Both the position numbers and the translations under genes were made by a program. Shown piece by piece: positions 7,265 through 41,310 of a stretch of 64,000 nucleotides of DNA (position 1 is the first letter of the stretch; each line of letters begins with the position of its first letter). Source of the stretch: Deltaproteobacteria bacterium (GTDB lineage: Bacteria; Desulfobacterota; Desulfobaccia; Desulfobaccales; 0-14-0-80-60-11); the NCBI GenBank assembly GCA_016875015.1, contig VGSJ01000005.1, positions 848 through 64,847 of the forward strand. Reading direction: 5' to 3'. The notes under the pieces are model-generated. The model worked only from the letters and a program-made list of their open reading frames with translations, ran no database searches and was not told the origin of the DNA.

Positions 7265-7370
7265 CCCGGGGTTTCCGCCTCCCCAGGTCTTAACGCCGTT
7301 CAGGTTGGGGCCCGGGGATGGCGAAGGAATCACGCCGGAATTTCCCTAAGCCGAGCCTTCCGGGGGGCCT

Positions 7371-7628
7371 TCAGGAGACCGTCTGGGGCAAATAGGCTTG
7401 CCCCGCCTGCCTCCCGGCCAGATAGACGGCGGCAAAGATCTCATCCGGCCCGGTCTGTTGGGAATCAAAAAGGACGGTAAAAAGGTCCTCCTGGGCGTCA
7501 TAGGCTACTTCCAGGATACCCCGGAGAGCGGCGATGGCGGCGCGCACGGCGTCAGGGCAACCGCTTCACACAAACCCGCCGCGCTGCACCATGCCCGTCA
7601 CCCGGAAATTGATGCGGTTGCTGTTCAT
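7371..7628 (-). CDS. Small HMA-like (ferredoxin-fold metal-binding type) protein with an in-frame TGA; candidate selenoprotein with a U-S-G-C motif
   Basis: ATG 7628-7626 lies 7 nt after GGAGGA. It reads MNSNRINFRVTGMVQRGGFV, then TGA (7568-7566), then continues in frame as SGCPDAVRAAIAALRGILEVAYDAQEDLFTVLFDSQQTGPDEIFAAVYLAGRQAGQAYLPQTVS to TGA 7373-7371. The TGA sits where the first Cys of a GM.C.GC metal-binding motif would be. Confidence 0.45.
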
Positions 7629-8090
7629 GGGGAATCCTCCGTCTAGCCTGTCCACCCGACGTTCCGCCTTCACCCCGCCCGGCTGGCTTTTTTTAATGGG
7701 GAAATTTTTTTCATGTTACCAAATTTCATCTCAGTGCACATCACTGCCTCGCCGCTCCCCGTGATGGCCCCGCCGCCGACTCGTCTGAGGACCGGACTAT
7801 CCTTGCCAAATGGAAAAATAATGAATAACCTTTAAACCGACAACCGGGGCGGGGCCTCAGGGTGCCCCGGCGAGCAACCAGCAAGGCTTTCCCGGAAAAC
7901 ATGTTCCGGGTAGACTATGGCCCTGGGAAGGGTAGCCGATTGGTTCGGTGGCGCCCCTGAATCCAGCCTGCATTTTTTTCTTTACCTCAGGCGGGATTTT
8001 CTTTATTATTTTAGCTAAATTAGCTTATAGGCGATTGAGCTGCCAGCCCCGGTAAGGGCTCCGGCGCGCGCCACCAAGGAGTAGAGCGGG

Positions 8091-8366
8091 ATGAACAAGT
8101 CGCAACTCATCGAAGCTCTGGCCAAAGCTGAGAATATCACCTTGAAGAAGGCGGAAATGGTGGTCAACGCCGTTTTTGAGAACATGGCGGATGCCCTGGT
8201 GCAAAAGGAACGCATCGAAATTCGCGGCTTCGGCAGTTTCAAGGTGAAATTTTACAATGGCTATAAAGGCCGCAACCCCAAGACCGGCGATCTCATCAAA
8301 GTTGACGGCAAGAAATTGCCCTTTTTCAAGGTCGGCAAGGAACTGCGGGAACGCGTCGATCGCTGA
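8091..8366 (+). CDS. ihfB: Integration host factor beta subunit / HU-family DNA-bending protein
   Basis: 91 aa. RIEIRGFGSFKV...GRNPKTGDLIKVDGKKLPFFKVGKELRERV is the IHF-beta/HU signature. Confidence 0.85.
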   Translation: MNKSQLIEALAKAENITLKKAEMVVNAVFENMADALVQKERIEIRGFGSFKVKFYNGYKGRNPKTGDLIKVDGKKLPFFKVGKELRERVDR

Positions 8367-8489
8367 GCCGTTTTTACAACCTGGTCGTGCTAGATGGGGA
8401 GCTAGCGGTGCCCTGTAACCCGAAAACCGCTTATGCGGGATTGAAGTCCCTTTTTGAGGATTGCAGCGCGGTCGTTGACTGCTGACCAG

Positions 8490-8598
8490 GGCGGCGGATT
8501 GGACCCTGCGCAACAGACGCTTGTGAACCCCGTCAGGTCCGGAAGGAAGCAGCGGTAAACAAGGCGGTCTGTGTCGCGGCGGTTTCTAATCCATCAAC
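8490..8598 (+). ncRNA. ffs: Signal recognition particle RNA (small, 4.5S type)
   Basis: Conserved domain IV sequence GTCAGGTCCGGAAGGAAGCAGC (8532-8553) with a GGAA tetraloop. Flanks pair (CTTGT 8520-8524 with ACAAG 8559-8563; GGATT 8496-8500 with AATCC 8588-8592). Ends are approximate. Confidence 0.8.
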
Positions 8599-8846
8599 CC
8601 TCTGGACACTGTCCTCGGTTGCGGCGGATTCAAAGGAGGGTGCACGGCCAGGCTGTTTTTCCGCGGTATTCCCGGGCATTCTTTTCAAAAACCCCTCAAT
8701 TTTCTGATTTCTCTCAGCCGGCCCGGCGTCGCCCTCCCCAAGGGGCCGATAGCTTGGCTTGCGGCTGGAAAACCATACCCTGGCAGGCATAAGGGAGTTG
8801 CACCTTCTGGGAGATGACTCTACCTCGCCTGCCTTCCGGAGGCAAG

Positions 8847-9625: not shown

Positions 9626-10006
9626 TTAGCCGGGCGGAGGCCCGTAATAGGGGGCCGGCTGATAATTACCCTGCTGAGGCGGCTGGTAATACCCCTGCGG
9701 TTGCGGCTGGTAATACCCCTGCGCCTGTGGCTGATAAGGGGTTTGGGATTGCCCGTAGACTGCTCCGGCCACGCCGCCCCCGGCACCCCCGAGCAGGGCG
9801 CCGATAGCCGCCCCCCTCCAGGGATTCGAGTGATTGATGGCGGCTCCCAGGCCGGCCCCCAGGGCTGCACCCAGACCCGCGCCCGTGTACAGGCTGGGAT
9901 TTTGACTCGGCGTGGCGCATCCTGTGAGAAAACTCAAGCCCAGCAGAGCCAAAAATATCATCTGCTTTCCCAGGCGCAGGCCCCAAAAGCGTTGTTTTCC
10001 GTTCAT
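9626..10006 (-). CDS. Glycine-zipper lipoprotein with a Q/Y/P-rich repetitive C-terminus
   Basis: Start ATG 10006 (GGGAGGGAAGATTC upstream). Signal peptide plus lipobox LTGC, a GxxxG-rich segment, then the tail QPQAQGYYQPQPQGYYQPPQQGNYQP. The longer track ORF (to 10327) is an unsupported extension. Confidence 0.7.
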   Translation of the reverse strand: MNGKQRFWGLRLGKQMIFLALLGLSFLTGCATPSQNPSLYTGAGLGAALGAGLGAAINHSNPWRGAAIGALLGGAGGGVAGAVYGQSQTPYQPQAQGYYQPQPQGYYQPPQQGNYQPAPYYGPPPG

Positions 10007-10137
10007 GAATCTTCCCTCCCAAGGGATTGGTTGGTGCATTTGAATAGTTAGAACCGCGCCAGGGGAAAACGTTAAGGCGTTACCGTTGGGGGGAGAAAAA
10101 ATCGCGGGCGATTGAAAAAAAAGTATAAAGCGGACCG

Positions 10138-28743: not shown

Positions 28744-28831
28744 GCCTGGGTGGCGGAACGGGTAGACGCAAGGGACTTAAAATCCCTCGGGGTGTGACCC
28801 CGTGCCGGTTCGAGTCCGGCCCCAGGCACCA
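28744..28831 (+). tRNA. tRNA-Leu (anticodon TAA), integration target of the island
   Basis: 88 nt. Acceptor GCCTGGG/CCCAGGC, long variable arm, anticodon loop CTTAAAA (TAA at 28778-28780), T arm CCGGTTCGAGTCCGG, encoded CCA. Confidence 0.9.
28773..28831 (+). repeat. attL: 3' part of tRNA-Leu, direct repeat partner of 63371-63428
   Basis: GGACTTAAAATCCCTCGGGG(tgtga)CCCCGTGCCGGTTCGAGTCCGGCCCCAGGCACCA is identical to the right copy except for the variable-arm loop (tgtga versus ttcg). Confidence 0.85.
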
Positions 28832-28865
28832 ATAATATCAAGTAGTTATAATTATGGGATGATGA

Positions 28866-30074
28866 TTATTCCGGGGTTTGGTCAACGTTTTGGTCAACAC
28901 TTTGCAGATTTAGCTGGTTATCAAGCCACTCGGTATAGCGGGCCATGGCGCGATGGAGATCGTCTTCTGAAGGCGCCATGTAATGGACATCCATCCCGTG
29001 CAGGCTATGGCCTAAGATGATGTCCCGGTGAACCTGGTCAACACCGGCGTTGACCATGTTGGTCTTCACGGTACGGCGCAGGTCATGAAAGATCAGCCCA
29101 CCGGGCACATCCCGTCCATGGTCGATCCCAGCCCGCTGACAGGCCTTCTTGAAGGAATCCTTAACTCCTCCCACATTGATGATGGGCTTGCCCCGATAGG
29201 TCAGCACAAAATCATGGTGCAGAGCTTGGGGAAGTTCAGCCAACACCCGCCGCACATGGTGGTTAATGGGAATCACCTTGGGTCTGTTCTCCTTGGTGAA
29301 ATCGGCCGATAAACGGATGCACCATTTTTCCCGGTCAATATGACTCCACTTGAGGGAGCGCAACTCTCCCAGTCTCATGCCAGTATTGACGGCCAAGGTC
29401 AGGAAAGCCCGAAGGTGCGGCGGGGATATGTTTAAGAGACTCACATACTCTGCTATGCTCAACGTCCGCCGCCTGGCATTGGCTGCCCTCCTCAGTTTCC
29501 TCTTTAACGTTCTGAAAGCCTTGACTGTCCGACCATCCACCAGATCATTGTCGAAGGCCTTGGTAACCATGGTCTTGGCGAGGCTGATTTCCATGTCGAT
29601 GGAAGCCGGAGCCAGCCCTTCCTCTTCTCGCTTGTCTTGGTAAGTTTCCAGGTCCAGGGGTTTAAGGCTGCTGACAATACGATTGCCGAAGAACTTGTTG
29701 AAGCTCCCCAAAGCACATTTTACCCGTTTGAAGGAGGCTAATTTCTGTACCGATTTCAGGTTGAGATACCAGTCGATGAGTTCTGAGAAGGTCATGCGTT
29801 CCGCTGGTATTTTTTCCAAGATTCCAGGATTCTCATACTTTTGGGCTTTGCGCTTGCCTTCCGCGGCCTTGGCCTCTTCAATCCCGAGCGGCTGGCCATC
29901 CGGGTCATTCCCCACGTACTCCCGGCGCTGCTTTCCCCCAGGCAGGCGATAGGTCACCCAATACCTGACCTTCTTGGCCCTCTTGGCTGCCGTCAGATCA
30001 CTGCCGCAGGCGCATCTCCGGTTTTTAGTCGATTGCTTTTTATGACACCAGGGGCATTCTGCTAAAATCGCCAT
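28866..30074 (-). CDS. int: Tyrosine-type site-specific integrase
   Basis: 402 aa. Catalytic region RLGELRSLKWSHID ... LIFHDLRRTVKTNMVNAGV ... ILGHSLHGMDVHYMAP (R..HxxR..H..Y). It ends 35 nt from the tRNA. Confidence 0.9.
   Translation of the reverse strand: MAILAECPWCHKKQSTKNRRCACGSDLTAAKRAKKVRYWVTYRLPGGKQRREYVGNDPDGQPLGIEEAKAAEGKRKAQKYENPGILEKIPAERMTFSELIDWYLNLKSVQKLASFKRVKCALGSFNKFFGNRIVSSLKPLDLETYQDKREEEGLAPASIDMEISLAKTMVTKAFDNDLVDGRTVKAFRTLKRKLRRAANARRRTLSIAEYVSLLNISPPHLRAFLTLAVNTGMRLGELRSLKWSHIDREKWCIRLSADFTKENRPKVIPINHHVRRVLAELPQALHHDFVLTYRGKPIINVGGVKDSFKKACQRAGIDHGRDVPGGLIFHDLRRTVKTNMVNAGVDQVHRDIILGHSLHGMDVHYMAPSEDDLHRAMARYTEWLDNQLNLQSVDQNVDQTPE
28878..28898 (+). promoter_or_regulatory. 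Two TTGGTCAAC direct repeats (candidate integrase arm-type sites, left arm)
   Basis: Copies lie at 28878-28886 and 28890-28898, inside the integrase 3' end (encoding VDQNVDQ). The same 9-mer occurs three times at 63212-63240, and TTGGTCAACACT(T/A)TGCAGA is shared by both ends. Confidence 0.5.
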
Positions 30075-30222
30075 GCCGTACCTCCCATTAACATTTTACC
30101 CAAAAGGGGGCGAAAAGAGCCAAAAAAGTTAGGTCGCCACAAGAGGTTTAAATTCCTTTTTAACCTGCAGAAGTTGCTGCCCTTTCACCGCAAACCAGGT
30201 ATCGCTATCCATATAGTAAGCC

Positions 30223-30254
30223 TGTCGCAAGTTGTGTCGCAAGATTGTCGTAAG
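30223..30254 (+). promoter_or_regulatory. Three helically phased direct repeats TGTCG(C/T)AAG (candidate operator)
   Basis: Copies at 30223-30231, 30235-30243 and 30246-30254 (spacing 12 and 11 bp), in the int / 3-gene-cassette intergenic region. Confidence 0.4.
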
Positions 30255-30435
30255 TTGGCTAATCCCTGGAGCCGGTAAATCAACTGATTGGTGGCGCCTT
30301 CAATGATCAGCATCCCTGAGGGCGCAGGGGCTGGAGCGGCTAATGGCCCGGAGCGCGACCTCCTAATCTTTACCAACCGTTAACCGCCACCCCCTTTTAA
30401 CTGAATTCTTGACAGGCTCTCTTTTTCACTAATTT

Positions 30436-30464
30436 TTGACAACATATACTCAAATGAATATAAT
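30436..30464 (+). promoter_or_regulatory. Perfect consensus sigma-70 promoter for the 3-gene cassette
   Basis: TTGACA (30436-30441), 17 nt, TATAAT (30459-30464), about 50 nt upstream of the first start codon. Confidence 0.6.
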
Positions 30465-30516
30465 AAACACTCTCTGTAAGCAGGCTTACTGAATCAGTCT
30501 ACCTTTGGGCAAGTAC

Positions 30517-31200
30517 ATGGCGAAAGAGATAATAACTGAGGAATTATCGATAGTTGTGGTAGCTCGCAATCACAACCCCACCATTCTAAACCCTGATTTC
30601 CTCAAATATAATAAAATTGTTCCCACAGATTGGGAACTGGCTGGTAAGCCTATCTGTGCTGACCCGGTGGCCCAAGTAACCTTCAGCAACGGGGTCAACA
30701 TAGTCTCCCAATTTGATAAAGTTATTTTCTCTGAGGTTTTACGAGATAAGAAACCTGGAGACGTTGCCATTCCGGGGATCGCCCAAAAATATGTCGAGAC
30801 GCTCCCTCATGTAGATTACCGTGCCGTCGGTATAAATCCCAAAGGACATGTGGTTTTTACAGATGAGGCCGAGGTACAAAGATATATTGTTGATAATCTG
30901 CTAGCTCCCGGCCCTTGGCGGCAATTTGATGAGATATCCGTAAAGGCGGCCATTAAGTTTATTTATGCGCTCAAAGATTGCCAGCTTTCTCTCACCATCG
31001 AGGAAGGAAAACTCCAGGTTCAAGACAGTCTTTTACCGGTGGCGTTATTTGCCGCGAATTTTCACCATGACTTGGCTGGGGAATCCAAGGAAGAGAAATT
31101 AAAAAATCTGTCCAAGATACTCGATGAGTGGGAAAAAGACCTTAACTTATTCAGAGAAATGGTGAACGAGAGATTTCTTGGAATTTCGGGAAAACCATGA
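30517..31200 (+). CDS. Hypothetical protein A of the 3-gene cassette (beta-rich, apparent internal two-fold repeat)
   Basis: Track ORF 30505..31200 (TTG); ATG 30517 is the alternative used here. No motif recognised. The stop overlaps the next start (ATGA at 31197-31200). Confidence 0.6.
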   Translation: MAKEIITEELSIVVVARNHNPTILNPDFLKYNKIVPTDWELAGKPICADPVAQVTFSNGVNIVSQFDKVIFSEVLRDKKPGDVAIPGIAQKYVETLPHVDYRAVGINPKGHVVFTDEAEVQRYIVDNLLAPGPWRQFDEISVKAAIKFIYALKDCQLSLTIEEGKLQVQDSLLPVALFAANFHHDLAGESKEEKLKNLSKILDEWEKDLNLFREMVNERFLGISGKP

Positions 31201-31652
31201 ACAGCTCTAATCTTGCGGTAGACACCGGAACCCACGGCAACTATCTCGAACCCCTTGCCAGGGCCAAGGGCCAGGACGTCAGGAAGAACCCGGCCTACAG
31301 GAGTTCAAGGTATATCAGGTCCTCCTCTGCAAGTGGAGAGAGGCAGTGGCACATTTCCATCACCCATACTGACTCTTTATATGATGAAGCTTGCGGTCAA
31401 CCATACGTTCCGGAGACCCCGGAAAATATGTCGGCAAATGGGGAGACCACTGCGGAACTCACTACCGAAGATGCCTTCGCTCTCAGTTTGCAGCAATTCA
31501 TGCAGGGAAGTCACCTGGATGTGGAAGAAGATATTTGGGATATCGAGGTAAGGTTAATCCCGCCGCCTATGCCACAACGGCGTATCAAGGTCAAGTTCCG
31601 GTTCATCGGCAAGGAAACCCCGCGTATTTCATTCAACCCTGAACGAGACTGA
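31197..31652 (+). CDS. Hypothetical protein B of the 3-gene cassette
   Basis: 151 aa. S/R-rich N-terminal third, acidic middle, basic beta-like C-terminus (RRIKVKFRFIGKETPRISF). Translationally coupled to gene A. Confidence 0.55.
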   Translation: MNSSNLAVDTGTHGNYLEPLARAKGQDVRKNPAYRSSRYIRSSSASGERQWHISITHTDSLYDEACGQPYVPETPENMSANGETTAELTTEDAFALSLQQFMQGSHLDVEEDIWDIEVRLIPPPMPQRRIKVKFRFIGKETPRISFNPERD

Positions 31653-31659
31653 TGCTTTC

Positions 31660-32310
31660 ATGAGCCCGGGTGAATCTCCATTAATCTTGTCCGAATGGTA
31701 TGAACTGGTGTCTAGCGACCAGTTAATGCAGGGGGATATCTTTGAAGGCTGTCCGGTCTTCAGACCGCCGTCTGATCTGAAATGGCCCATTCAGGAGGAA
31801 AGTGAAGAGTTTGAATTTGCCTTGGGCACTCAAGATGTCATGGTCATGACCCAATCTTGCGATCTCCTGCCTGACCAGAAATCCGGTATGTGGCTGGTGA
31901 TCCTCTGTCCTATCTGGAAATTATCCGAAGCCTCCCGGGAAAACCAGATCTTAGCTTCAAGCTATGGCAAGGAAGAATGTCGCCGGGGGCATATGACCGG
32001 CTACCATATGATTGCCGGCTGCGAGCATGGTGATTGGAACCGAGAAATTTCCATCGTCAGTTTCCGTGAGGTTTGGAGCTTACCTTTGGATTTTGTCCGC
32101 CGTATGGCGGCCGCGTATGGACCGCGGCCCCGCCTGCGGCCCCCATATCGGGAGCATCTGGCTCAGGCCTTTGCGCGTTATTTCATGAGAGTCGGCCTAC
32201 CGGTGGATATCCCTGCCTTCAAGAGCAACAAAGCGGAGAGTGAGCTGCTAAAGAAACTCAACGCTCTGGATGCCGAGGCACGTCAGCGTCTTCTGTCGCA
32301 TTTCGCCTAA
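31660..32310 (+). CDS. Hypothetical protein C of the 3-gene cassette
   Basis: 216 aa, starting 7 nt after gene B. Notable motifs are LMQGDIFEGCPVF and DVMVMTQSCDLLPD. No family recognised. Confidence 0.6.
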   Translation: MSPGESPLILSEWYELVSSDQLMQGDIFEGCPVFRPPSDLKWPIQEESEEFEFALGTQDVMVMTQSCDLLPDQKSGMWLVILCPIWKLSEASRENQILASSYGKEECRRGHMTGYHMIAGCEHGDWNREISIVSFREVWSLPLDFVRRMAAAYGPRPRLRPPYREHLAQAFARYFMRVGLPVDIPAFKSNKAESELLKKLNALDAEARQRLLSHFA

Positions 32311-32599
32311 CTTTTTGCACTCTTTCCTTTCCCGGATATTTCCCTCATCCTCTGAGCCAATGGCCGATGACGGGGGCCAGCCTTGGCTGGTGGGAGTTCT
32401 GCGCTTCTATCCAGGGCGAGCGCCAGCCCCAGGTATAAAGTTGGTGCCAGGGGGCGGCGCTCGCTGGCGCCGGCCGTCGGCTACCTGGTCGGCAGCTGTC
32501 GCCCTCGGTCTTCAAGCACCGAGGGGACCAGGGGTGAATTTTTTTTAATCAGGTGGGTCCTTTTTACTTGGCCACAAGTGGTTCCTATTGCGTGGCCAT

Positions 32600-33160
32600 T
32601 CACACATCTTCATCGACCTCCACCTCATCAAGCAAGAGATTGTCTTCATCTACCACCTCCAAAGAAAAACCGGGCTTGCTAAGGTCCAGGCTGGCAATTT
32701 CTTCCGGAAACGGTTGAGCGTCGTCCACCATCCACAATTTGTCGAGGTAGTCCAAACAGGTGGCTTGCTTCCCAGGCCAGGCGCTCCAAATAAGGCTTGT
32801 GAATGAGTCCCCGCCCGTGGACTTCCGATAGAAATGACCCTTGCCCCCGATTTGGATGAATTGCTTGTCGATCTCGACGGTCCACCAGTGCCAGATCTCA
32901 TGCTCACCGAACCAACGCCTCGGGCCGTTGAGGCTGATATGAACCGTGACCTCCGCCTGAGTCACCTGCGGGATCTTGCTCAAGACATAAAGGGCTTTGG
33001 CCACAGAGACTAATTGGGCCGGGCGGGTGAATGGCGCATGCGTAATCTTACCCAGTAGTTGAATGGCCGCATCCACTATGTCCCGGTCGCTAGCAGAGAG
33101 GTAATAAGTATTCGAGAATTCGGAATCATTCCCTGACTCAGCGCCATTTTTGTCATTCAT
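32600..33160 (-). CDS. Hypothetical protein with a strongly acidic C-terminal tail
   Basis: Start ATG 33160 follows AGGAGG (MNDKNGAESGND...). The C-terminus is LEVVDEDNLLLDEVEVDEDV. It is the last gene downstream of the DISARM-like operon on the same strand. Confidence 0.6.
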   Translation of the reverse strand: MNDKNGAESGNDSEFSNTYYLSASDRDIVDAAIQLLGKITHAPFTRPAQLVSVAKALYVLSKIPQVTQAEVTVHISLNGPRRWFGEHEIWHWWTVEIDKQFIQIGGKGHFYRKSTGGDSFTSLIWSAWPGKQATCLDYLDKLWMVDDAQPFPEEIASLDLSKPGFSLEVVDEDNLLLDEVEVDEDV

Positions 33161-33318
33161 GAGACCTCCTGACCGGATGACAGCAGCGCGGGTCGGCCGG
33201 GGAAATAGAGGTGGGGATAAGCGATGCCCTGAAAACAAGTATAACGACCACCGGACCAGCCGCATTTCTGAGCGAAGGTTCCGGGTCCCACTCTATGCAA
33301 TTCGAATCTCTCCCCGCT

Positions 33319-34305
33319 TTAAATTTTCTGGTTCTTCGATGGCACATCGAACTCAGCAAACGGTAATAACCACGTGGGACCTGCGGCTATTCTGATTCCA
33401 TCCGATTGGTAGCCAGCTTTATGGAAAGCGTCCGCCTCTTTGAGGCACAACTTCCTGGCATCGCCCCACTGTTCATGAGTTAGGGGCTCGAGAATGAGAG
33501 GATGAATGCCAACTTCAAGGTCAAGCTCCTTGATCGGCAGCAGAACCGCTTCATGGACCATCTTCTCAAAATATGGTGATTGGGAACGGAGGAGCTCGAG
33601 CACCGGCTGATAGTAGTGGCGCCACATGCCTTCATCGAGAGTCACTTCGATGGGGTGTTTTGGTTTATCTTTCGGCGGGTCTGGGTCTCTCCAGAAAAAT
33701 TGCAGGACGTCATTGCGAAAATAGGTGATGCAGCCAATATAAAAGCGGGGCGCCACTCCATTGACACTGACAACCCGTTGTGCCTGCTGCTTCGCTTTGG
33801 CTTTTGGGTCGTTACCCGGGATGCTTATGCGTCCTTTGGCTTCAAGCGCCACCCATTCCTGAGAGCTGGTTTCTGCAATTAGATCAGGACGAGAACGGCC
33901 TGTGAGGACCGGGTTAAGCTGAGGGCGAAATACGTCCAGGTGCATTGCCCACGGGGCATCGAGACATTTCCAGGAAAACAGTTTGCAGAGTACCATGCCG
34001 AGGAAGTAGTTTACGGCACCTTTCTCAGATGGATCGAGGGTTTTTGCCGCATCGGTCCGGCGCAGCCGGCGAGCAGTTTGACCACGTTGCTCCAGGGCCA
34101 TCCGCACCAGGGACCAGCGGAATAATGCTTCGTACATTGAAGCCGTACCATGCCTGAAAACATACTGGCGGTTAGGGCGTCCAACAGTCACGGCGGCCCA
34201 GAGCAACTCGTCCCAGCTTGTTGAGAGCACAGCATTGCCATTGGATACTGGACTGGCCGGAGGCGGATCGAACCCTTCAGACCGGTAATCAATTTCAATC
34301 GGCAT
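33319..34305 (-). CDS. Predicted PD-(D/E)xK nuclease-fold protein
   Basis: SRPDLIAETSSQEWVALEAKGR supplies a D...E-x-K arrangement, preceded by an acidic helix (DPSEKG). It overlaps the methylase gene end by 11 nt. Confidence 0.5.
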   Translation of the reverse strand: MPIEIDYRSEGFDPPPASPVSNGNAVLSTSWDELLWAAVTVGRPNRQYVFRHGTASMYEALFRWSLVRMALEQRGQTARRLRRTDAAKTLDPSEKGAVNYFLGMVLCKLFSWKCLDAPWAMHLDVFRPQLNPVLTGRSRPDLIAETSSQEWVALEAKGRISIPGNDPKAKAKQQAQRVVSVNGVAPRFYIGCITYFRNDVLQFFWRDPDPPKDKPKHPIEVTLDEGMWRHYYQPVLELLRSQSPYFEKMVHEAVLLPIKELDLEVGIHPLILEPLTHEQWGDARKLCLKEADAFHKAGYQSDGIRIAAGPTWLLPFAEFDVPSKNQKI

Positions 34306-37300
34306 CGCTTACCCCCTTTGGTGGGTGGATGTGGGGCGGCCAATCCGGCGGTTGGGGCTGACCGGGTTGCCATTCGGGAAGACCGCCTTCCGGTGGGCCG
34401 GGGGGCGGGTCGAGGCGGGTTTGGTAAGGCTGGCCGGTGCGGATGGCTGCGGCCATGGCGTCGTAGATTTCGAGGATGATGCGCTTGGTGCGGTAGTCGC
34501 CGTCGTACTTCTCCTCGTCCTTGCGGCGGACGATGGGGAAGGTGTCCATGATATAGGCCACTGCGTCCCGGGGGGTGGGGAAGTGGCCGGTGAGTTCGGC
34601 CATTTCCTCCGGGGTTTCGTCCCGCACCGCGCCTTCGGCCACTCGGGCGAGTTTCCATTGGCCGTCGGCGGTGGCCGGCAGGTAGAGGTGGAAAAAGGCG
34701 GCATCCAGCTCGCAGCGCAGCAGAAAGCGGCGTTCCTCTTCCCAGCGGAACGGCGGGCCCGACCAGCCGCAGTCCTGCGCGAAGGGCTCCAGGTCCCACG
34801 CAGTGTAAGTCAGTTCAATTGTTCTAAGCGTGAGCCATTCTATCAGTGAGATTCCGGATCCATTCCAGGGAATCTTGCTTTTGAGTAACGGAAACGCAGG
34901 AACCGGGATCTGTTTGATGATATAGAAATTGAGATTAATGCCTGACATCTTACTACGGAGCACATAGTCAAATGCGAATGAGTTTAGTACACCGCACAAG
35001 CCAAGGGATCTTTCTGCGAGGGGTAAAGAAATCATAAAGAGGCTATCACCAATTCCCACTTGTGGAACAATAGATGCCATCATGGTTCGGATATTGGCAA
35101 CCGTACCTCCGACTCGGCGATATGCCAAAACACCTCTGCATGCTGTCACAAGTTGTGGAATATTCGTACGGAGTACGCTATATCGACTCTCAGGCACGTA
35201 ACCTGCATCGGCATGTTGGGAAGCCGTGGTTTCCTCGGAGCCTCCTCTTAGCTTTTGTCCACCTCTTGCCTCAGTAGAAGACGCAAATCTATGATCGAAG
35301 TGATAGATCATTTTGCCCTCATAGAGCGGAACAAGGGCTGTTAAATAATGTTGGCCAGTTTCGAGTTCGCTGGCCCGCAATGCAGCGTTGTCGATGAACA
35401 GGTCAGAATCATTGGCCATATGAAACATGGTCATAAATGTCGGATTCCATCCCGATGAAATGTCGTCTACGTCTGACAGAAGAATGGGCAGACGCCGGTA
35501 TATGCCGATCACGAGTTCTGCATCTTTGAAGCTCCTAAAAAGTGGACATGTTCTTGTGTTTGGGTTCAAGAGTAATATGTCTTTTGTGCGAAGTTCAAAT
35601 GTGCGTCCCACAACTGAAACTTCGGCAACGTCCTGCAATCCACACGCAACCGTCGTACTCGAGGATTCGGATCCGCACGGTCGACCAATCGTCAGAAGAC
35701 AAAACTTCGTATTTCGGTCTACTGTTGGGAATAATCCCTTTGTGTTCTCAAAATCGAGAACTCGGCGAATCATCGTTTCTCTAACTAAGGACTGGAAAAA
35801 CGCTTTCGTCGTATCATCAGTTGCTATCCCGCTGGGCATTAAGCAACCAAGCCGCCCTGACAAAGAAATGCGCTTCCGCATCTGCTCAGCAAAAACCGCA
35901 AAAAGATTGATATCACCACGAGCACATAAAGGGAAGTCACCGCTATTTCTCAGGAAATGACTCTCCCCCTCGGCCTGTCTTTGGGCTAAGACAAATTCAC
36001 GGATGAGATGTGTATCTCGGCTTTTTAGTTCGCGAATCATCCGTTTCCGTTCGGCCGCGGTCTTGGCCGTAGCGATCTCCGGTTCTCGCTCGGCAAACCA
36101 CTCCTTCTCCTGGAGTTTTACGCGCTCCCACGGTGGATTACCCATCACACAGTCAAAGCCGCCTTTGGCGAACACCTCAGGAAAGGCCAGATGCCAATGG
36201 AAGAACTGATACTGGTGAATGAGGCGCTCGACTTCGGAAGTGAGTTCGGCTGGCAGCGGCCGTCCGGCAGCCAAGTCGTTCAGATAGCCCTGAGTGATAC
36301 CGCTGGTGCTGCTCTCCCGGCCCGGCTCACTGAAATGCTTTTTAATGACAAAGGCGGCGCACCAGGTGTCGTAGAGTTGCTTCTTGTGGCGGTACTCCTC
36401 AGTCTGTTCATGGCGCCGAAAGGCCAGCTCCCTGGCGCGGATGTTCTCGGGCCGATCATCGGGCATTTCCTCCAGGGCGGCTGCAGCATTTATTAAACGG
36501 TCTTGGGTTTCGGCGTCCTGCCGGGCAAAGAGCGGTCCCCACCCCTTGCGTTCGGCCTTATTGCGCTTCTTCAGCACCGCACAGGCCTTCTTGTCGTCGC
36601 CCTCGATGGGCTTGAAGGCATCATCGGGGAGGCCGGCGGCGATGATGTCGGGAGTGGCGCCCAGCAGGCTATTGCCGACGCGGATGTGATGGTCCAGAAA
36701 GGAAAGGGGCTTGCCGGGTTCCAAGGCTTCGAGCCATAAGTTCACCCGGCAGAGCTCGGCGGACATGGGGTTCAGATCCACGCCATAGAGGCATCGGCCG
36801 ATGACGTCCCGCAGGGCCTGCTGGTAGAGGAGCGGCGAGGGCTCGCTCTCGCCCTGGGCCAGGGCACGCACCCTGGCCAGATGCCGGGCTAACCGGTGCG
36901 CCGAGCCCACGAGGAAGTGGCCGGAGCCGACGGCGGGGTCGCAGACCTTGAGGGAACGGATAGCCTTCTCGGCTTCAGGTCCGGTCTTGCCCTTGATGGC
37001 TTCCTCCACCACGGGGTCCAGGGCAGAGTCCAGCAGACACTGCACCAGGGAGTCGGGGGTGTAATAGGAGCCGGAGGTTTTGCGCTCGCTGCCAGCGAAC
37101 TCTGCGAAGGTGAACCGGGCCCCGTCGGCACTGATTTGGGGGGTGAGGGCCAGCAGACTCTCATAGACACCCCCCAACTCCTCAGCGCCAAGGTTCTTGT
37201 AGTCCACCGGGCGCAGCACTTTTCCTTGTCGGGTGAAGGCCAGGTGGCGGAGAGCTTCCAGAAAATCGAAGTTGGTGAGCTCGGCATCGTTGAGAACGGC

Positions 37301-38479
37301 AGTAGAGTTCGGGTCCCAGAGAAAGCTGCCCAGAATCGGCAAGGCCAGATGCTCTCTGACAGCAGCGAAGTTGGCATCGCCAGACAGCGCCCCCACCAGG
37401 AGCTGGAACTGCCGCCAGAGGTCGCTGTGGCGGCTCCCCTTGATGTGGGAGGCCAGGTCACGGAGGCGCCCGGTGCTGTAATGGGCGGCATAGCGTTCCC
37501 GAGCGAGTCGGGCAGCCTCCGACCCATCCCGCGGGTGAAGCAAAGCCAGCCCCTCGATGGTGCGATCCTCGGCCACAAATAGGAAGATCAAGCGGTAGAC
37601 GACACGCAAGAGCTGGCCATGAAAATCCGTGAGCGAGGTTTCCCCGCTTCGCAACCTCTCGCGCAAGGCCAGGTTTTTCGAGTGGCTGGTGAAGCCTTCC
37701 CCCAAAATGCGCAAAGCCTGTTCCACCCCTTGGCGCAGATCGCCCAGGGCGCGAGTACCTTGTTCCTCGGCGAGCTTGGTCCACTGCTCCAGCCAGCAGG
37801 TCTCCGGGCGGTCGCCCTCCCGTGGAGCAAAGCGCGTGGCGTGGGCCATGAGCCAGAACAAAACGAAATCGGAATAGACCTCCCCACTGAACATGGCGGC
37901 CAGGTCGAACTCCAGGAAGGACTGACGGGAAAGAGCCTGATTATCGCGCAGGATGCGAAAGGTCAGGCCATTGGAGACGATGGCCCAGAGATGTCTGGGG
38001 CTGCGGTTCAAAAACTCCTGAACCAGACCGTGGGGATTGACCGCGGCGGCCCCGCGCACTCCTGCGGCCTTGCGGTCGAGGCTCAGACCACAGCCGAGTA
38101 GGTGCACCGGTACGGGACCAAAGAAGCGGCTGATGGCATAGGTGCGACCGCCGATTTCGGGGCCGGCAGTGGTGGGGAGCATACCGAAGGCCAACTCGCG
38201 CAGCAGGGGGAGATTCCACTTGTCATTGGTGAGGCCGGTCCCCACTTCACCCTCGGAAAGGCTGGCAGATGTGGCCTGGAACTCTGCCCAGTGTTTACGA
38301 AGACGATTCCATGACTGGGTGATGACCTCGTTCAGGCGCTCACCTGGCGGCAAGCCGTAATCTTCGGGCCCCGTGCCGGGTAGCTTTTCTTTGGGGTCAA
38401 GCACATGCCGGAGCAGATCGGGCGGCAGGAGTCCCCCTTCGGAGCGGATGGTCTGGAACTCATTGCTTCGACGGGCCAT
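34295..38479 (-). CDS. drmMI: Very large N6-adenine DNA methyltransferase (Eco57I/PglX/DrmMI-like)
   Basis: 1394 aa. SAM-binding motif [14 protein letters not shown] and catalytic motif [11 protein letters not shown] (NPPW). It starts 2 nt after the SNF2 gene stop. Confidence 0.75.
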
Positions 38480-38481
38480 GG

Positions 38482-41310
38482 TTACGTCAACCTCGGCAAC
38501 AGAACGTAAGCCCCCAAGATGTCTACGGGGAGCACGGGCTGGATGGTGACACGGCCCTTGAGGCGAGCTGACTCGCGGACGCGCTCATGGGCTGCGAGCT
38601 GAACGGTGGAACGTTCGGTGGCGACGACTTCGAGAGCCTGTTGCATTTTCGGCAGGGCTGGGAGCAAGAGGCTGAGTTGCTGGTCGACGGCGGTTCGAAC
38701 GAGGTTGCGCTCGGGCCTGGCCTGAAGAAGACGCTCACCTTCTTCCGGCGTGAGCCATTGTGGTGCGTCAGCAGGACCGGAGCAGGCGAGGGGAATGATC
38801 TCCTCGCAAAGGATGGGTTCGCCGGCGGTCTGCAGATGGTAGCGTAAGCGTACCACCAACAGCATGGTACGGGTGCTCACGGCGGAGGTGGAAATGACCC
38901 CACAGCGAGCAGCCACAGCCAGAGTGTCCCGGGCCACCGGATCAAGGGCTTGGTCGAGGGTCCAACTGGCAAGGCCCTCGACCACTGGGCCGGTGCGGCC
39001 AAGATAGATCTCACCCTTTCCCAGCGGCAAATCAAAACGGCCCGTGAAGGAGTCATCGAGGCCAATGGCCTGTCGTAAGGAGCGGGGCACTTCGTTACTG
39101 AGGTGAACGGCGATGGCTTTCCCCTTGGCTTGCACCGGGATGTTGGCCGCTTGAATTACGGTGTGGAAGAACCTGGCCACGTCTTCATTGCGGCCGATGG
39201 CGGCGCGAACGCTTTGGAGTTCTGCGGCTACGGCTTCGGGACTCAAGGTGTGCTGGGCGAACCGGGAGCGACTGGCTTTTTCACGGTCGCGGGCATTATC
39301 CCACTCGGCGTGAAGGGTCTGTTTCTTGGTCTCGAAGAGGTCGTCGAGGAAGGAAAGCTGTTGGAAGCGCTTGCCGGTCTTTTCCCGAAAGAGTGCCCCC
39401 TCGAACAACGCCTCGGCGATCTGCTCGCTGGACCCCGGTACCGCCACGGTTACACCAAGGTCGCTCTTGATAGTTTTGTGCTTGCGGATAAGGACATCGA
39501 GGATCACACCGTCGATGGGATTATCTATGCCATAGTATGTGATGACGCGGACCTCGGGCTTTTCCTGCCCAAAGCGATCAATCCGGCCTTCCCGCTGCTC
39601 GTGGCGTGTGGGGTTCCAGGCCAAATCATAATGCAGCACGGCATTGAAGTGCGTCTGGAGGTTTACCCCCTCCGCCAGACAGTCGGTACAGACGAGCACA
39701 TATTGACCCGGATCGGCAACCAGGGCCTCGATTCTTGCTTCGCGCTCAGCATGAGGCAGCAACCCAGTCACCGATTCGACTCTGACTTTGGCAGGCAAGG
39801 CCTCGCGGAAGTGCCGGGCTACATAATCGGCGGTATCCACGAACCGGCAAAAAACGATGGGTGAAAAGCCATCCTTCAGCAGCCCCTTGATCTCATGAAT
39901 GGCTCCCTGCAGCTTGTGATCCGCTTCGGGAGAGAGGGCTTCGGCTCTCCGGGCAAACTCCAACATTTTCCGACGCGTGCCATCAGCTCCGGCTTCTGAG
40001 TCCGAGCCAGGGCTGAAATCAAGGGCAACCACATCATCGGTGTCGTCCTGGTCAAGCACCGTGCGCCTACCCACTTCGTCCACTTCATTGTCAGGGGCCT
40101 CATCCACGGCAGCCCGGCTCCGAAGTGTTGCAGCGGCCGCTGCCGGGCTGGAGGAAACACAGCGCATCAATGCCAACGCCGACCAGTAACGCACCCGGCG
40201 CCGACGTTGGCTGGTATCGCTTTCCGAAACGAACTCCCGAGCGAAGGCGAGAATGTCATCGAAGAGGGAGCGATATTCGTTGCTAAAGCTGTAAGTTGGC
40301 TCAGGGATCTTGTCGTACCGCTTGGGGAAAGACGTATCCGTCTGAAGGTAGTGTTTAATGTCACCACGACGACGCTGCACTAAATGTTTTGCCAGCTTGC
40401 GGCGAATTTCTTCCCTTCCGGCCCGGTCAAGGTCCATGGGCAGGCTTGCAAACTCTTCATCAAGTAAGCTGAGAAGAGAACGAAATGCCTCTTCGTTGCC
40501 GCTGTGGGGCGTGGCGGTGACCAGGACCAGATGCCGTGATTTGTTCTTGGCGACACGCCGCAGCAAATCAAAACGCTGCTGGCGTCCTCGTCCAACACCA
40601 CCGGCCAAGGTACAGCCATGGGCCTCATCCACAATAACAAACTCGGGACATTTCAGGATGAAGTCCTCAGCCCGGCGTGGGGTCTTGATAAAGTCGGTGG
40701 AGACGATGGTAAAGCGGTGGCGGTCAAAGACCGAAACGCCGATCGGCAGGTCGCGCTCCAGTCGTTGGATGGTACTGCTCAGAACCAACTCGGCCTCGAC
40801 ATGGAACTTCTCGGTCAGCTCACGTTGCCATTGCTCGGCCAAATGAGGTGGGCAAAGTACTGTCATCCGCTTGATTTCGCCACGGTCAAGGAGCTCGCGG
40901 GCCAACATTGCGGCCTCAATGGTTTTGCCTATGCCTACATCGTCGGCGATCAAAAGGCGCACGGGGTCGAGTTTAAGCCCCATCATGAGCGGCACGAGCT
41001 GATAGGGCCGGGGCTCAGCAGCTATGCGGCCGAAGCTCCGGAAAGGACCAGCGGCTGCACGAGTAGATAAACGCGCTGCCTCGCGCAAGAGCTGGCCTGA
41101 GGTAAAGTCCCCGAGGTCAGCCTGAGTGGGCATTTTGAAAGTCGCTGACGCGACAGGCTCAACAGCAGGTAGGATGCCAGTGGTCTCTTCGTCGAGTCCC
41201 CCTAAGGGTCGCACAATGAGGAGGTCATCCGAAGAGTCGGGTAGCACTAACCATTCGCGGCCACGCGCATGTATGAGGGTGCCGGGTTTAGAAAGGGGGG
41301 CAGTGCTCAT
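38482..41310 (-). CDS. drmD: SNF2-family helicase (DrmD-like)
   Basis: 942 aa. DDVGIGKTIEAAML (motif I), VIVDEAHGC (DEAH), AWNPTRHEQREGRIDRFGQ (motif VI). Its start overlaps the upstream helicase gene by 4 nt. Confidence 0.8.
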   Translation of the reverse strand: MSTAPLSKPGTLIHARGREWLVLPDSSDDLLIVRPLGGLDEETTGILPAVEPVASATFKMPTQADLGDFTSGQLLREAARLSTRAAAGPFRSFGRIAAEPRPYQLVPLMMGLKLDPVRLLIADDVGIGKTIEAAMLARELLDRGEIKRMTVLCPPHLAEQWQRELTEKFHVEAELVLSSTIQRLERDLPIGVSVFDRHRFTIVSTDFIKTPRRAEDFILKCPEFVIVDEAHGCTLAGGVGRGRQQRFDLLRRVAKNKSRHLVLVTATPHSGNEEAFRSLLSLLDEEFASLPMDLDRAGREEIRRKLAKHLVQRRRGDIKHYLQTDTSFPKRYDKIPEPTYSFSNEYRSLFDDILAFAREFVSESDTSQRRRRVRYWSALALMRCVSSSPAAAAATLRSRAAVDEAPDNEVDEVGRRTVLDQDDTDDVVALDFSPGSDSEAGADGTRRKMLEFARRAEALSPEADHKLQGAIHEIKGLLKDGFSPIVFCRFVDTADYVARHFREALPAKVRVESVTGLLPHAEREARIEALVADPGQYVLVCTDCLAEGVNLQTHFNAVLHYDLAWNPTRHEQREGRIDRFGQEKPEVRVITYYGIDNPIDGVILDVLIRKHKTIKSDLGVTVAVPGSSEQIAEALFEGALFREKTGKRFQQLSFLDDLFETKKQTLHAEWDNARDREKASRSRFAQHTLSPEAVAAELQSVRAAIGRNEDVARFFHTVIQAANIPVQAKGKAIAVHLSNEVPRSLRQAIGLDDSFTGRFDLPLGKGEIYLGRTGPVVEGLASWTLDQALDPVARDTLAVAARCGVISTSAVSTRTMLLVVRLRYHLQTAGEPILCEEIIPLACSGPADAPQWLTPEEGERLLQARPERNLVRTAVDQQLSLLLPALPKMQQALEVVATERSTVQLAAHERVRESARLKGRVTIQPVLPVDILGAYVLLPRLT

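What the first reader, a model, noticed from the sequence alone, without database searches (positions are those of the whole stretch)
7371..7628. Candidate selenoprotein: HMA-like 85-aa ORF with in-frame TGA forming a U-S-G-C motif
A well-placed GGAGGA + ATG opens an ORF that hits TGA after 20 codons. The same frame then stays open for 64 more codons with protein-like sequence (beta-alpha-beta-beta-alpha-beta pattern like CopZ/MerP: INFRVTGM...[TGA]SGC..AV..AL..L.GV..V......L.V.F.......EI..AV..AG). The TGA aligns with the first Cys of the C-S-G-C metal-binding motif. Cys/Sec exchange in such redox or metal motifs is the hallmark of bacterial selenoproteins, which are frequent in anaerobic deltaproteobacteria. 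ORF callers (including the supplied track) miss the gene completely.
Basis: partly seen in the sequence, partly recalled or inferred. Interest (0 to 1): 0.6.

Follow-up and report, generated by a model that had tools for sequence, protein, structure and literature searches.

The report
Uncatalogued selenocysteine HMA-fold metal-binding protein gene
The in-frame TGA is very probably a selenocysteine codon in a real 85-residue gene for a small metal-binding-type (HMA-fold) protein that gene callers truncate, and the family appears in no current list of bacterial selenoproteins.

Summary
On the minus strand, GGAGGA (7640-7635) precedes ATG 7628. TGA is codon 21 (7568-7566), and the frame stays open to the TGA stop at 7373-7371.

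In 62 of 62 related loci where the codon could be read, TGA sits at the same column. These loci come from Thermodesulfobacteriota MAGs and metagenomes. Both sides of the TGA are under purifying selection in one frame: dN/dS is 0.25 upstream and 0.30 downstream, against about 1 and 2.5 in the other frames.

A Cys homologue carries TGT at that column. Other relatives carry TGA-x-x-TGA (UxxU). The AlphaFold model (pLDDT 84) matches only HMA domains such as CopZ and MerP.

Synonymous variation falls to almost zero exactly at +16..+33 after the UGA (p=3e-5). This stretch can form a 17-nt hairpin after an 11-nt spacer, with GU in its loop, the same geometry as the E. coli fdhF minimal SECIS. There is no compensatory covariation, and free folding prefers a different hairpin.

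No selA, selB, selD or tRNA-Sec gene lies in the window, so the genome's Sec machinery is untested.

The protein fails every NCBIfam cut-off, and none of the 119 families in a 2026 inventory matches it. In five divergent lineages the gene overlaps the stop codon of a mocA-like gene, which hints at a role in molybdenum-cofactor maturation.

Verdict: a new member of a known kind.

The parts
7371..7628 (-). Full coding sequence of the HMA-fold selenoprotein: 85 codons, with Sec at codon 21 and a TGA stop at 7373-7371.
   Evidence: Searches give the sequence. Conservation across 62 loci is and dN/dS. Pfam HMA scores 24.9 bits against a cut-off of 24.8. The AlphaFold2 and Foldseek results show an HMA fold.
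7635..7640 (-). Shine-Dalgarno sequence GGAGGA, 6 nt upstream of the ATG at 7628-7626.
   Evidence: GGAGGA(C/T)TCCCC-ATG is conserved in most homologous loci. Distant loci carry in-frame stops upstream of the ATG, which fixes the start (L008).
7566..7568 (-). In-frame UGA, read as selenocysteine (U21), the first ligand of the U-S-G-C motif.
   Evidence: TGA is present in 62/62 loci. A Cys (TGT) homologue is L066/P0035. UxxU relatives are L067-L069. phmmer aligns this column with the first Cys of GMTCxxC in ATP7B.
7557..7559 (-). TGC codon for Cys24, the second ligand of the UxxC motif. It sits one residue before the predicted start of helix alpha1.
   Evidence: Cys is invariant in the 51 closest sequences. 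Relatives L067-L069 have TGA at this column. Helix alpha1 starts at the following Pro in the model.
7538..7554 (-). Proposed SECIS apical hairpin at +15..+31 from the U of UGA. Sequence UGACGCCGUGCGCGCCG; pairs 15-31, 16-30, 18-28, 19-27 and 20-26; A17/C29 unpaired; loop CGUGC.
   Evidence: Synonymous diversity is 0.007 for codons 26-31 against 0.265 elsewhere, p=3e-5. The stem nucleotides and the loop GU are invariant in all 49 distinct sequences, and 98% of cells are paired. The element fits the published bSECIS constraints, and the constrained MFE is <= -7.5 kcal/mol in 50/57 sequences. It has the same 11-nt spacer and 17-nt hairpin as E. coli fdhF.
7537..7564 (-). Alternative, thermodynamically preferred hairpin at +5..+32 (GCGGY...GCCGC outer stem), which overlaps the proposed SECIS.
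   Evidence: This is the RNAalifold consensus. 97% of cells are paired, with wobble changes only. The base-pair probability is about 0.7. Its loop starts 10 nt after the UGA and lacks a leading G, so it does not fit the bSECIS consensus.
7371..7547 (-). Truncated 58-aa ORF (GTG start) that gene callers report in place of the real gene.
   Evidence: P0007-P0031 are 58-aa database entries. The six codons between the TGA and this GTG (SGCPDA) are 96-100% conserved as protein.

Best explanation
Window 7628-7371 (minus strand) is a genuine selenoprotein gene. It encodes an 85-residue cytoplasmic protein with a heavy-metal-associated (HMA, beta-alpha-beta-beta-alpha-beta) fold. Selenocysteine (UGA at 7568-7566) replaces the first ligand of the usual CxxC site, giving U21-S-G-C24.

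Proposed mechanism (inferred): when the ribosome reaches the UGA, SelB carrying Sec-tRNA(Sec) binds a small mRNA hairpin that starts 11 nt downstream (7554-7538, GU in the loop) and delivers Sec instead of terminating. The second UGA, at 7373-7371, has no such element and terminates translation.

Proposed function (inferred): the selenolate/thiolate pair sits at the end of a remodelled, 7-residue-longer beta1-alpha1 loop and binds a soft metal or chalcogen species for hand-over to a partner. The physiological ligand is unknown. In five divergent lineages the gene is translationally coupled to a mocA-like gene, and in three of them an xdhC-like gene lies just upstream. This points to molybdenum-cofactor maturation rather than classical Cu or Hg resistance.

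Shown: the gene, the conserved UGA, selection on both sides of it, the Sec/Cys/UxxU series, the HMA fold and the local RNA-level constraint. Inferred: SelB-dependent decoding in this organism, the exact SECIS pairing and the ligand.
For: - The sequence is as described.
- TGA is conserved in 62/62 loci together with the in-frame N-terminal peptide.
- dN/dS is 0.25 upstream and 0.30 downstream of the TGA, against 0.99 and 2.46 out of frame.
- JGI code-4-type translations show W at the column and run on through the TGA stop.
- The Cys homologue P0035 carries TGT.
- UxxU relatives carry two TGAs. One of them lies next to a bona fide NF041115 selenoprotein gene (118.7 bits against a cut-off of 95).
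- Pfam HMA scores just above threshold. The AlphaFold2 model has pLDDT 84, and all top PDB matches are HMA domains with target-normalised TM-score about 0.8. phmmer aligns U/C24 with the CxxC of ATP7B.
- Synonymous variation is lowest exactly at +16..+33.
- The hairpin fits the bSECIS consensus and the E. coli fdhF geometry.
- The mocA-like gene overlaps the start of this gene in L013, L014, L064/65, L070/71 and L073, with an xdhC-like gene upstream in L013, L014 and L065.
- All the homologous genome loci are MAGs labelled Syntrophobacterales, Desulfobaccales, Thermodesulfobacteriota, delta proteobacterium or (once) only Proteobacteria. Thermodesulfobacteriota is described as among the most selenoprotein-rich groups (PMC13188914).
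Against: - No selA, selB, selD or tRNA-Sec gene is in the 64-kb window or in 14 genome flanks, and no second selenoprotein candidate is in the window. Sec decoding in this organism therefore rests on its lineage and on the gene itself.
- Neither hairpin model has a compensatory double change, and the shuffle controls are not exceeded.
- Free folding prefers a different hairpin (+5..+32), with base-pair probability 0.7 against 0.11.
- The folding energy of the region is not better than shuffles (z=+1.1).
- One relative (L073) has TGG (Trp) at the column.
- In the window's own clade the neighbours (HU, SRP RNA, a 51-aa membrane protein, a spermidine-synthase-like protein) give no functional clue, and their shared order reflects close relatedness only.
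Confidence: 0.87

Rival explanations
1. The TGA is a real stop. The region would then encode a 20-codon upstream peptide and a separate 58-64-residue protein started internally, as the databases annotate it (GTG at 7547).
For: Gene callers report the 58-aa ORF in at least 25 clusters. No Sec machinery is seen in the window.
Against: The six codons between the TGA and the GTG (SGCPDA) are 96-100% conserved as amino acids while codons 23 and 25 vary synonymously, so they are translated. The upstream 20 codons are under purifying selection in the same frame. No Shine-Dalgarno sequence precedes the GTG. The HMA sheet needs the N-terminal strand. Cys and UxxU forms exist at the same column.
Confidence: 0.04
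2. The UGA is read through, but not as selenocysteine. It could be decoded as Trp, Cys or Arg by near-cognate suppression or by a reassigned genetic code.
For: JGI pipelines translated six homologues with TGA=W. One relative has a true TGG at the column. The Sec machinery is unverified.
Against: The gene's own terminator is TGA in 45 of the 51 close sequences (TAA in 3), and the W translations run on into unconserved tails after it. The column alternates TGA with TGT, and the second ligand alternates TGC with TGA, which is the Sec/Cys signature at a metal ligand. A Trp there would destroy the site. An RNA-level constraint sits at SECIS distance. A neighbouring gene in L067 belongs to a curated selenoprotein family.
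Confidence: 0.05
3. This is a decaying pseudogene of an HMA protein whose first Cys codon mutated to TGA.
For: TGC/TGT to TGA is a single substitution. L014 does look degraded downstream.
Against: The identical TGA is present in 62/62 loci spanning 29-84% protein identity, with dN/dS about 0.3 on both sides and a conserved ribosome-binding site.
Confidence: 0.01

Closest known systems
NF041115 'UxxU_metal_bind' metal-binding (seleno)protein, listed as 'putative mercuric reductase' of the Olavius symbiont in the 2026 inventory (PMC13188914)
   Same: It is a small stand-alone HMA-fold protein with Sec at the metal-ligand positions, and it is the best NCBIfam hit. A true member lies directly upstream of a UxxU relative of our family in L067.
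   Different: Our protein scores 26 bits against a cut-off of 95. It has UxxC rather than UxxU and no signal peptide. It carries GM-VQRGGFV-U instead of GMT-U, a 7-residue-longer loop predicted to form a beta-hairpin, and a conserved PDAV after the second ligand.
Sec-containing HMA domain of P-type cation-transporting ATPases (UxxC; ABB15669.1 in PMC13188914)
   Same: It has a UxxC motif on an HMA fold. The best sequence matches to solved structures are ATPase metal-binding domains.
   Different: Ours is a free-standing 85-residue protein, not a domain of a pump, and no ATPase gene is adjacent in any locus examined.
CopZ / Atx1 copper chaperones and MerP (PF00403)
   Same: It shares the fold, the size and the two-ligand site at the beta1-alpha1 junction.
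   Different: It has Sec in place of the first Cys and an extended loop. It falls far below the CopZ and MerP equivalog cut-offs (24.6 against 91-95; 19.8 against 92.55). No cop or mer genes were seen among the neighbours examined.
E. coli fdhF SECIS (minimal 17-nt upper stem-loop placed 11 nt after the UGA)
   Same: The spacer (11 nt) and the element length (17 nt, +15..+31) are identical. Both have two basal pairs, an unpaired nucleotide at +17, a short G/C upper stem and GU in the loop (the pairing of the E. coli element is from established knowledge).
   Different: Ours has a 3-bp rather than 4-bp upper stem, an A17/C29 1x1 internal loop instead of a bulged U17, and a 5-nt rather than 4-nt loop. 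It has not been tested experimentally.

Membership tests
Bacterial selenoprotein gene (UGA decoded as Sec) | The in-frame UGA is conserved among homologues, with coding conservation on both sides. | tested here: met
   TGA is present in 62/62 loci. dN/dS is 0.25 upstream and 0.30 downstream, against 0.99 and 2.46 out of frame.
Bacterial selenoprotein gene (UGA decoded as Sec) | A Cys-containing homologue aligns Cys with the UGA (a Sec/Cys pair). | tested here: met
   P0035/L066 reads GGFT-C(TGT)-VGC at 44% identity.
Bacterial selenoprotein gene (UGA decoded as Sec) | A bSECIS hairpin lies 3' of the UGA with a 3-9 nt loop, G in the first two loop positions, 16-37 nt spacing and energy <= -7.5 kcal/mol (criteria from PMC13188914). 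| tested here: met
   The +15..+31 hairpin has the 5-nt loop CGUGC and 17 nt from the UGA to the loop. The constrained MFE is -12.1 kcal/mol in the window and <= -7.5 in 50/57 sequences. It coincides with the synonymous-variation minimum. Caveat: the upper stem is 3 bp plus a mismatch plus 2 bp.
Bacterial selenoprotein gene (UGA decoded as Sec) | The SECIS structure is supported by compensatory covariation or by above-background stability. | tested here: inconclusive
   There are no double changes, and the shuffle controls are not exceeded. The z-score is +1.1. Free folding prefers another hairpin.
Bacterial selenoprotein gene (UGA decoded as Sec) | selA, selB, selC (tRNA-Sec) and selD are present in the same genome. 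| not testable with these tools
   None is in the window or in the 14 genome flanks.
Bacterial selenoprotein gene (UGA decoded as Sec) | Selenium is incorporated into the protein. | not testable with these tools
   This needs 75Se labelling or mass spectrometry.
HMA domain (PF00403) | The Pfam score is at or above the gathering threshold. | tested here: met
   The score is 24.9 bits against 24.8, with Cys substituted for Sec. This is a marginal pass.
HMA domain (PF00403) | A beta-alpha-beta-beta-alpha-beta fold with a two-ligand site at the beta1-alpha1 junction. | tested here: met
   The AlphaFold2 model has pLDDT 84 and the correct order of elements plus an extra beta-hairpin. All top Foldseek PDB hits are HMA domains. 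UxxC aligns with CxxC.
NF041115 UxxU metal-binding (seleno)protein | The NCBIfam equivalog score is at least 95 bits. | tested here: not met
   The window protein scores 26.0 bits, and relatives score 16.6-27.2 bits. A true member scores 118.7 bits.
CopZ (NF033794 / NF033795) | The NCBIfam score is at least 91-95 bits. | tested here: not met
   24.6 bits.
MerP (TIGR02052) | The score is at least 92.55 bits, and the protein has a periplasmic signal peptide and mer-operon context. | tested here: not met
   The score is 19.8 bits. No signal peptide is visible in the sequence. No mer genes were seen among the neighbours checked.

The most novel reading that the evidence does not exclude
The family is a selenocysteine-dependent accessory factor for maturation of molybdenum-hydroxylase cofactors. 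On this reading, an HMA-fold U-x-x-C/U carrier delivers a sulfur, selenium or metal atom (for example the terminal sulfido or selenido ligand, or Cu, Mo or W) to the MocA/XdhC machinery. This would explain why it is translationally coupled to mocA-like genes in five divergent lineages and why Sec is almost never replaced by Cys.
Probability: 0.12. Interest if true: 0.7.

Novelty: new member of a known kind. Interest (0 to 1): 0.5.

Why it matters
This gene adds a selenoprotein family that current annotation systematically truncates to 58 residues. None of the 119 families in the 2026 inventory matches it, and it passes no NCBIfam model, so selenoproteome counts for Desulfobaccales- and Syntrophobacterales-type anaerobes are underestimates.

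The family gives a natural UxxC / UxxU / CxxC (and one WxxC) series on a simple, well-understood HMA scaffold. That makes it a clean system for asking what selenium adds to a metal-binding site.

Its SECIS candidate is as small as the E. coli minimal element and has the same spacing. This is useful for models of SelB recognition outside the Enterobacteria.

The repeated coupling to mocA-like and xdhC-like genes suggests an untested link between Sec proteins and molybdenum-cofactor maturation.

Tried and rejected
- **Rfam.** An E-value scan of 7300-7700 gave only a chance IRES hit. No match to any Rfam family supports a SECIS here.
- **Plain MFE and shuffles.** The region 3' of the UGA folds no better than shuffled sequence (z=+1.1), so stability alone is no evidence.
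- **Covariation counts.** For two hairpin models there were no double compensatory changes and the shuffle controls were not exceeded. The models cannot be separated this way.
- **Sec machinery.** ARAGORN found only tRNA-Val and tRNA-Leu in the window and nothing in 14 flanks. Pfam on candidate-sized ORFs found an aminotransferase, a TPR protein, GH3 and others, with no SelA, SelB or SelD.
- **A second selenoprotein in the window.** A screen for TGA-joined ORF pairs gave only frame shadows and one pair of separate genes.
- **Synteny as a functional clue in the window's clade.** This was rejected, because the neighbours are 75-100% identical across loci and the shared order therefore reflects close relatedness only.
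- **Membership of NF041115, CopZ, MerP or the MerT/CopZ fusion.** All scores are far below the cut-offs.
- **Literature.** Searches for an HMA selenoprotein by name found nothing specific.

Full report
**1. The observation**

On the minus strand, GGAGGA (7640-7635) lies 6 nt before ATG 7628-7626. Twenty sense codons follow, then TGA at 7568-7566, then 64 sense codons and a TGA stop at 7373-7371.

The conceptual product is MNSNRINFRVTGMVQRGGFV-U-SGCPDAVRAAIAALRGILEVAYDAQEDLFTVLFDSQQTGPDEIFAAVYLAGRQAGQAYLPQTVS.

A mechanical ORF list shows only the 58-codon GTG-started ORF 7371-7547. So the gene is not missed completely, as the finding states; it is truncated.

**2. The TGA is a conserved sense codon**

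A protein search returned 33 relatives.

- About 25 are 58-residue truncated calls.
- Six JGI entries cover 99-100% of the query. They show W at the TGA column and run on past the normal end after a second W. These contigs were translated with TGA=Trp, which reveals TGA at both places.

I then fetched DNA for 14 loci from species-representative genomes and 51 metagenome contigs. The genome loci are all MAGs labelled Syntrophobacterales, Desulfobaccales, Thermodesulfobacteriota, delta proteobacterium or, in one case, only Proteobacteria. Desulfobaccales belongs to the phylum Thermodesulfobacteriota.

In all 62 loci where the codon before SGC could be read, it is TGA. The frame upstream encodes M..(I/L)NFRVAGM(V/L)(Q/K)(R/Q)GGF(V/T). 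This holds even for members only 29-48% identical (L012, L013, L014, L064).

Nei-Gojobori estimates over the 51 closest distinct sequences:

| Region | dN/dS |
|---|---|
| Codons 7-20 | 0.25 |
| Codons 22-85 | 0.30 |
| Upstream part, frame +1 | 0.99 |
| Upstream part, frame +2 | 2.46 |

The six codons between the TGA and the annotated GTG start (SGCPDA) are 96-100% conserved as protein, while codons 23 and 25 vary synonymously.

One polypeptide is therefore read through the TGA. The pseudogene reading and the leader-peptide-plus-58-aa-protein reading are excluded.

**3. Sec/Cys signature**

An exhaustive phmmer search of 1.84 billion cluster representatives found 52 hits. The sequences were read.

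- P0035 reads GGFT-C-VGC, and its DNA has TGT at the column (L066).
- Several relatives listed as W-x-x-W have TGA at both positions in the DNA. L067 reads GGFT-TGA-ATA-GGG-TGA-CCC, and L068 and L069 are similar. These are UxxU forms.
- In L067 the gene directly upstream is a signal-peptide HMA protein, GMT-U-AS-U. It passes the curated NF041115 selenoprotein model (118.7 bits against a cut-off of 95), so that organism decodes Sec.
- One relative (L073) has TGG, a true Trp, at the column.

A column that alternates TGA with TGT, next to a second ligand that alternates TGC with TGA, is the classical Sec/Cys pattern. The 2026 review describes the use of Sec/Cys pairs as a prediction criterion (PMC13188914).

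**4. Fold**

- With Cys in place of Sec, Pfam HMA scores 24.9 bits against a gathering threshold of 24.8.
- AlphaFold2 on the homologue P0001 with 32 aligned sequences gave mean pLDDT 84 and pTM 0.73. The order of elements is a long beta1, a short return strand ending at the Sec column, alpha1, beta2, beta3, alpha2 and beta4.
- The top 48 Foldseek PDB matches are all HMA domains: a Bacillus anthracis copper-binding protein (2l3m), MerP (1osd), metal-binding domains of ATP7B and plant HMA ATPases, and CopZ. Target-normalised TM-scores are about 0.8 for the best matches.
- phmmer aligns GGFV-C-SG-C with AGMT-C-AS-C of ATP7B domain 4.

The Sec is therefore the first metal ligand. Cys24 sits one residue before the predicted start of alpha1.

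The family differs from canonical HMA in having 20 rather than about 12 residues before the first ligand. The conserved stretch GM-x-(Q/K)-x-GGF(V/T) is predicted to form a beta-hairpin.

**5. SECIS**

*Thermodynamics alone is uninformative.* The region folds no better than shuffles (z=+1.1).

*The strong evidence is evolutionary.* dS is 0.24 for codons 22-35 against 0.54 for codons 36-85. Per codon, synonymous diversity is 0.00-0.04 for codons 26-31 (GAC GCC GTG YGC GCC GCC), against a mean of 0.27 elsewhere (Mann-Whitney p=3e-5). This is the minimum of any 6-codon window in the gene. It is sharply bounded by the variable Pro codon 25, at 0.53. The block is nt +16..+33 from the U of UGA, window 7553-7536.

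*Two hairpins can be drawn.*

- **Model 1** spans +5..+32 and has the outer stem GCGGY/GCCGC.
  - It is the RNAalifold consensus.
  - It has base-pair probability about 0.7 and 97% of cells paired.
  - Its loop begins only 10 nt after the UGA and lacks a leading G.
  - Its 5' arm would lie inside the ribosome when the UGA is in the A site (the last point rests on established knowledge of ribosome footprints).
- **Model 2** is a 17-nt hairpin at +15..+31.
  - Its pairs are N15-G31, G16-C30, C18-G28, G19-C27 and C20-G26.
  - A17 and C29 are unpaired, and the loop is N-G-U-N-Y.
  - 98% of cells are paired.

*Fit of model 2 to the published bSECIS constraints.* The constraints are a 3-9 nt loop, G in the first two loop positions, 16-37 nt between the UGA and the loop, and energy <= -7.5 kcal/mol (PMC13188914). 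The constrained MFE is -12.1 kcal/mol in the window and <= -7.5 in 50 of 57 sequences.

*Conservation pattern.* The stem nucleotides of model 2, including the third-codon positions C18, C27 and C30, and the loop GU are invariant in all 49 distinct sequences. The loop third positions 21 and 24 change in the distant members.

*Geometry.* Model 2 equals that of the E. coli fdhF element. I verified that sequence in 5,413 genomes: an 11-nt spacer CACGGCCCAUC followed by the 17-nt GGUUGCAGGUCUGCACC. Its pairing and the importance of the loop GU and the unpaired +17 nucleotide are from established knowledge.

*Caveat.* Neither model has compensatory double changes, and the shuffle controls are not exceeded.

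I take model 2 as the more likely SelB-binding element, with moderate confidence. That some RNA-level constraint sits at SECIS distance is well supported.

**6. Sec machinery**

- ARAGORN finds only tRNA-Val and tRNA-Leu in the window and nothing in 14 flanking loci.
- Pfam on ORFs of SelA, SelB or SelD size finds unrelated families.
- A screen for other TGA-joined ORF pairs found no second selenoprotein.

This refutation criterion therefore remains untested for this genome. The review states that Thermodesulfobacteriota are among the most selenoprotein-rich organisms.

**7. Gene context and function**

In the window's clade the order is HAD, Gly-rich protein, flavodoxin-like NAD(P)H dehydrogenase, HU, SRP RNA, this gene, a convergent 51-aa membrane protein, a spermidine-synthase-like membrane protein, NtrC and GH3. 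This order is shared by all close loci. The neighbours are 75-100% identical, however, so it reflects relatedness and not function.

The divergent members are informative. In L013 (a Desulfobacca sp. MAG), L014, L064/L065, L070/L071 and L073 the gene follows a mocA-like NTP-transferase gene.

- Where the junction was read (L064/L065 and L070/L071) the start codon overlaps the mocA-like stop by 11 nt (ATGGCGACTGA, ATGTCAACTGA). In L013 and L014 a start overlapping the end of the mocA-like gene is likely but was not pinned down, and in L073 the gene starts about 75 nt downstream.
- The mocA-like gene's best NCBIfam hits are the NF045665 DVU_1551 family and TIGR03310 MocA/YgfJ, both below their cut-offs. 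Pfam assigns NTP_transf_3.
- In L013, L014 and L065 an xdhC-like gene lies just upstream of the mocA-like gene. Its best hit is the NF045664 XdhC-family aldehyde-oxidoreductase maturation factor.
- The MocA-like proteins of L013 and L014 are only 54% identical, so the linkage has survived considerable divergence.

No cop, mer or P-type ATPase gene is adjacent in any locus examined.

I therefore infer a soft-ligand carrier that uses a selenolate/thiolate pair. I favour a role with the MocA/XdhC cofactor-maturation proteins over classical metal resistance, but the ligand is unknown.

**8. Comparison with what is known**

HMA-type selenoproteins are already known:

- the UxxC HMA domain of a P-type ATPase;
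- the NF041115 UxxU protein;
- a MerT/CopZ-fusion model (NF045683).

The window protein and its relatives score 13.5-27 bits against these models, whose cut-offs are 95-375 bits.

The 2026 inventory of 119 prokaryotic selenoprotein families has no entry that matches this family. NCBI annotates a member as a 58-residue hypothetical protein (P0016).

It is thus a new member (family) of a known kind, not a new kind.

**9. Verdict**

| Claim | Confidence |
|---|---|
| The gene is a real selenoprotein gene | about 0.85-0.9 |
| HMA fold, with Sec as the first ligand | high |
| Exact SECIS pairing | moderate |
| Function | low to moderate |

Interest is moderate. New bacterial selenoprotein families are still being found regularly. 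This one is cleanly supported and systematically mis-annotated, it offers a natural UxxC/UxxU/CxxC series, and it shows an unexplained link to mocA-like and xdhC-like genes.

Noticed in passing
window 8385-8647 (+), just after the HU gene at 8091-8366: A full-length 'bacterial large SRP RNA' (Rfam RF01854, 144 bits) lies immediately downstream of the HU gene. The HU, SRP RNA and selenoprotein gene arrangement is conserved in the close MAGs.
   Followed up: partly
window 28744-34300: tRNA-Leu(taa) at 28744-28831 is followed directly by a phage-type integrase gene (28866-30074, minus strand) and a stretch of lower G+C (0.48-0.54 against about 0.6). This looks like an integrated mobile element or genomic island.
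   Followed up: partly
window 34295-46562 (-): Three very large adjacent genes lie next to the putative island: an Eco57I/N6-type DNA methylase (1394 aa), an SNF2-type helicase (942 aa) and a DEAD-box helicase fused to an MZB (MrfA Zn-binding) domain (1751 aa). From memory, this composition resembles a DISARM-like anti-phage system. It was not tested against PADLOC.
   Followed up: partly
L067 33-664 (NCBI GCA_044344285.1, contig JAZHCH012192518.1): Two adjacent double-selenocysteine HMA genes. The first is a signal-peptide GMT-U-AS-U protein that passes NF041115. The second is a GGFT-U-IG-U member of the family studied here. That gives four Sec codons within 400 nt.
   Followed up: yes
L013 8565-10192; L014 8552-10190; L064 96-750; L065; L070 4337-5198; L073: The order xdhC-like, mocA-like, HMA-selenoprotein gene recurs in divergent lineages. 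Where the junction was read (L064/L065, L070/L071), the mocA-like stop and the selenoprotein start overlap by 11 nt.
   Followed up: yes
L073 593-853 (Logan SRR32459166): One relative has TGG (Trp) instead of TGA at the Sec column (GGFV-W-SGC). This is either a natural single-nucleotide Sec-to-Trp change or an assembly error. A mocA-like gene is still upstream.
   Followed up: partly
P0001-P0006 (JGI metagenome gene calls): Six homologues were translated with TGA=Trp. The resulting proteins have W at the Sec position and 38-57 residues of meaningless read-through tail after the real TGA stop. This is a database artefact that happens to expose hidden selenoproteins.
   Followed up: yes
L069 67-456 and P0050: Some UxxU members of the family carry an N-terminal membrane or lipoprotein-type signal (for example ...LLGAC-SS...). 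Part of the family is therefore probably exported, unlike the cytoplasmic window protein.
   Followed up: no
L066 2381-2632 (Cys form): In the Cys homologue the apical stem pair C18-G28 of the proposed SECIS is replaced by G18-C28 (GAC to GAG and GCC to CAG). This is a double change that keeps the pairing, while the basal pair 16-30 is lost. It may be a vestigial hairpin or chance.
   Followed up: no
window 9626-10022 (-): A small ORF ends in a Tyr/Gln/Pro-rich repeat (YQPQAQGYYQPQPQGYYQPPQQGNYQPAPYYGPPPG) after a Gly-rich segment and a lipoprotein-like N-terminus. It is conserved in the close MAGs.
   Followed up: no
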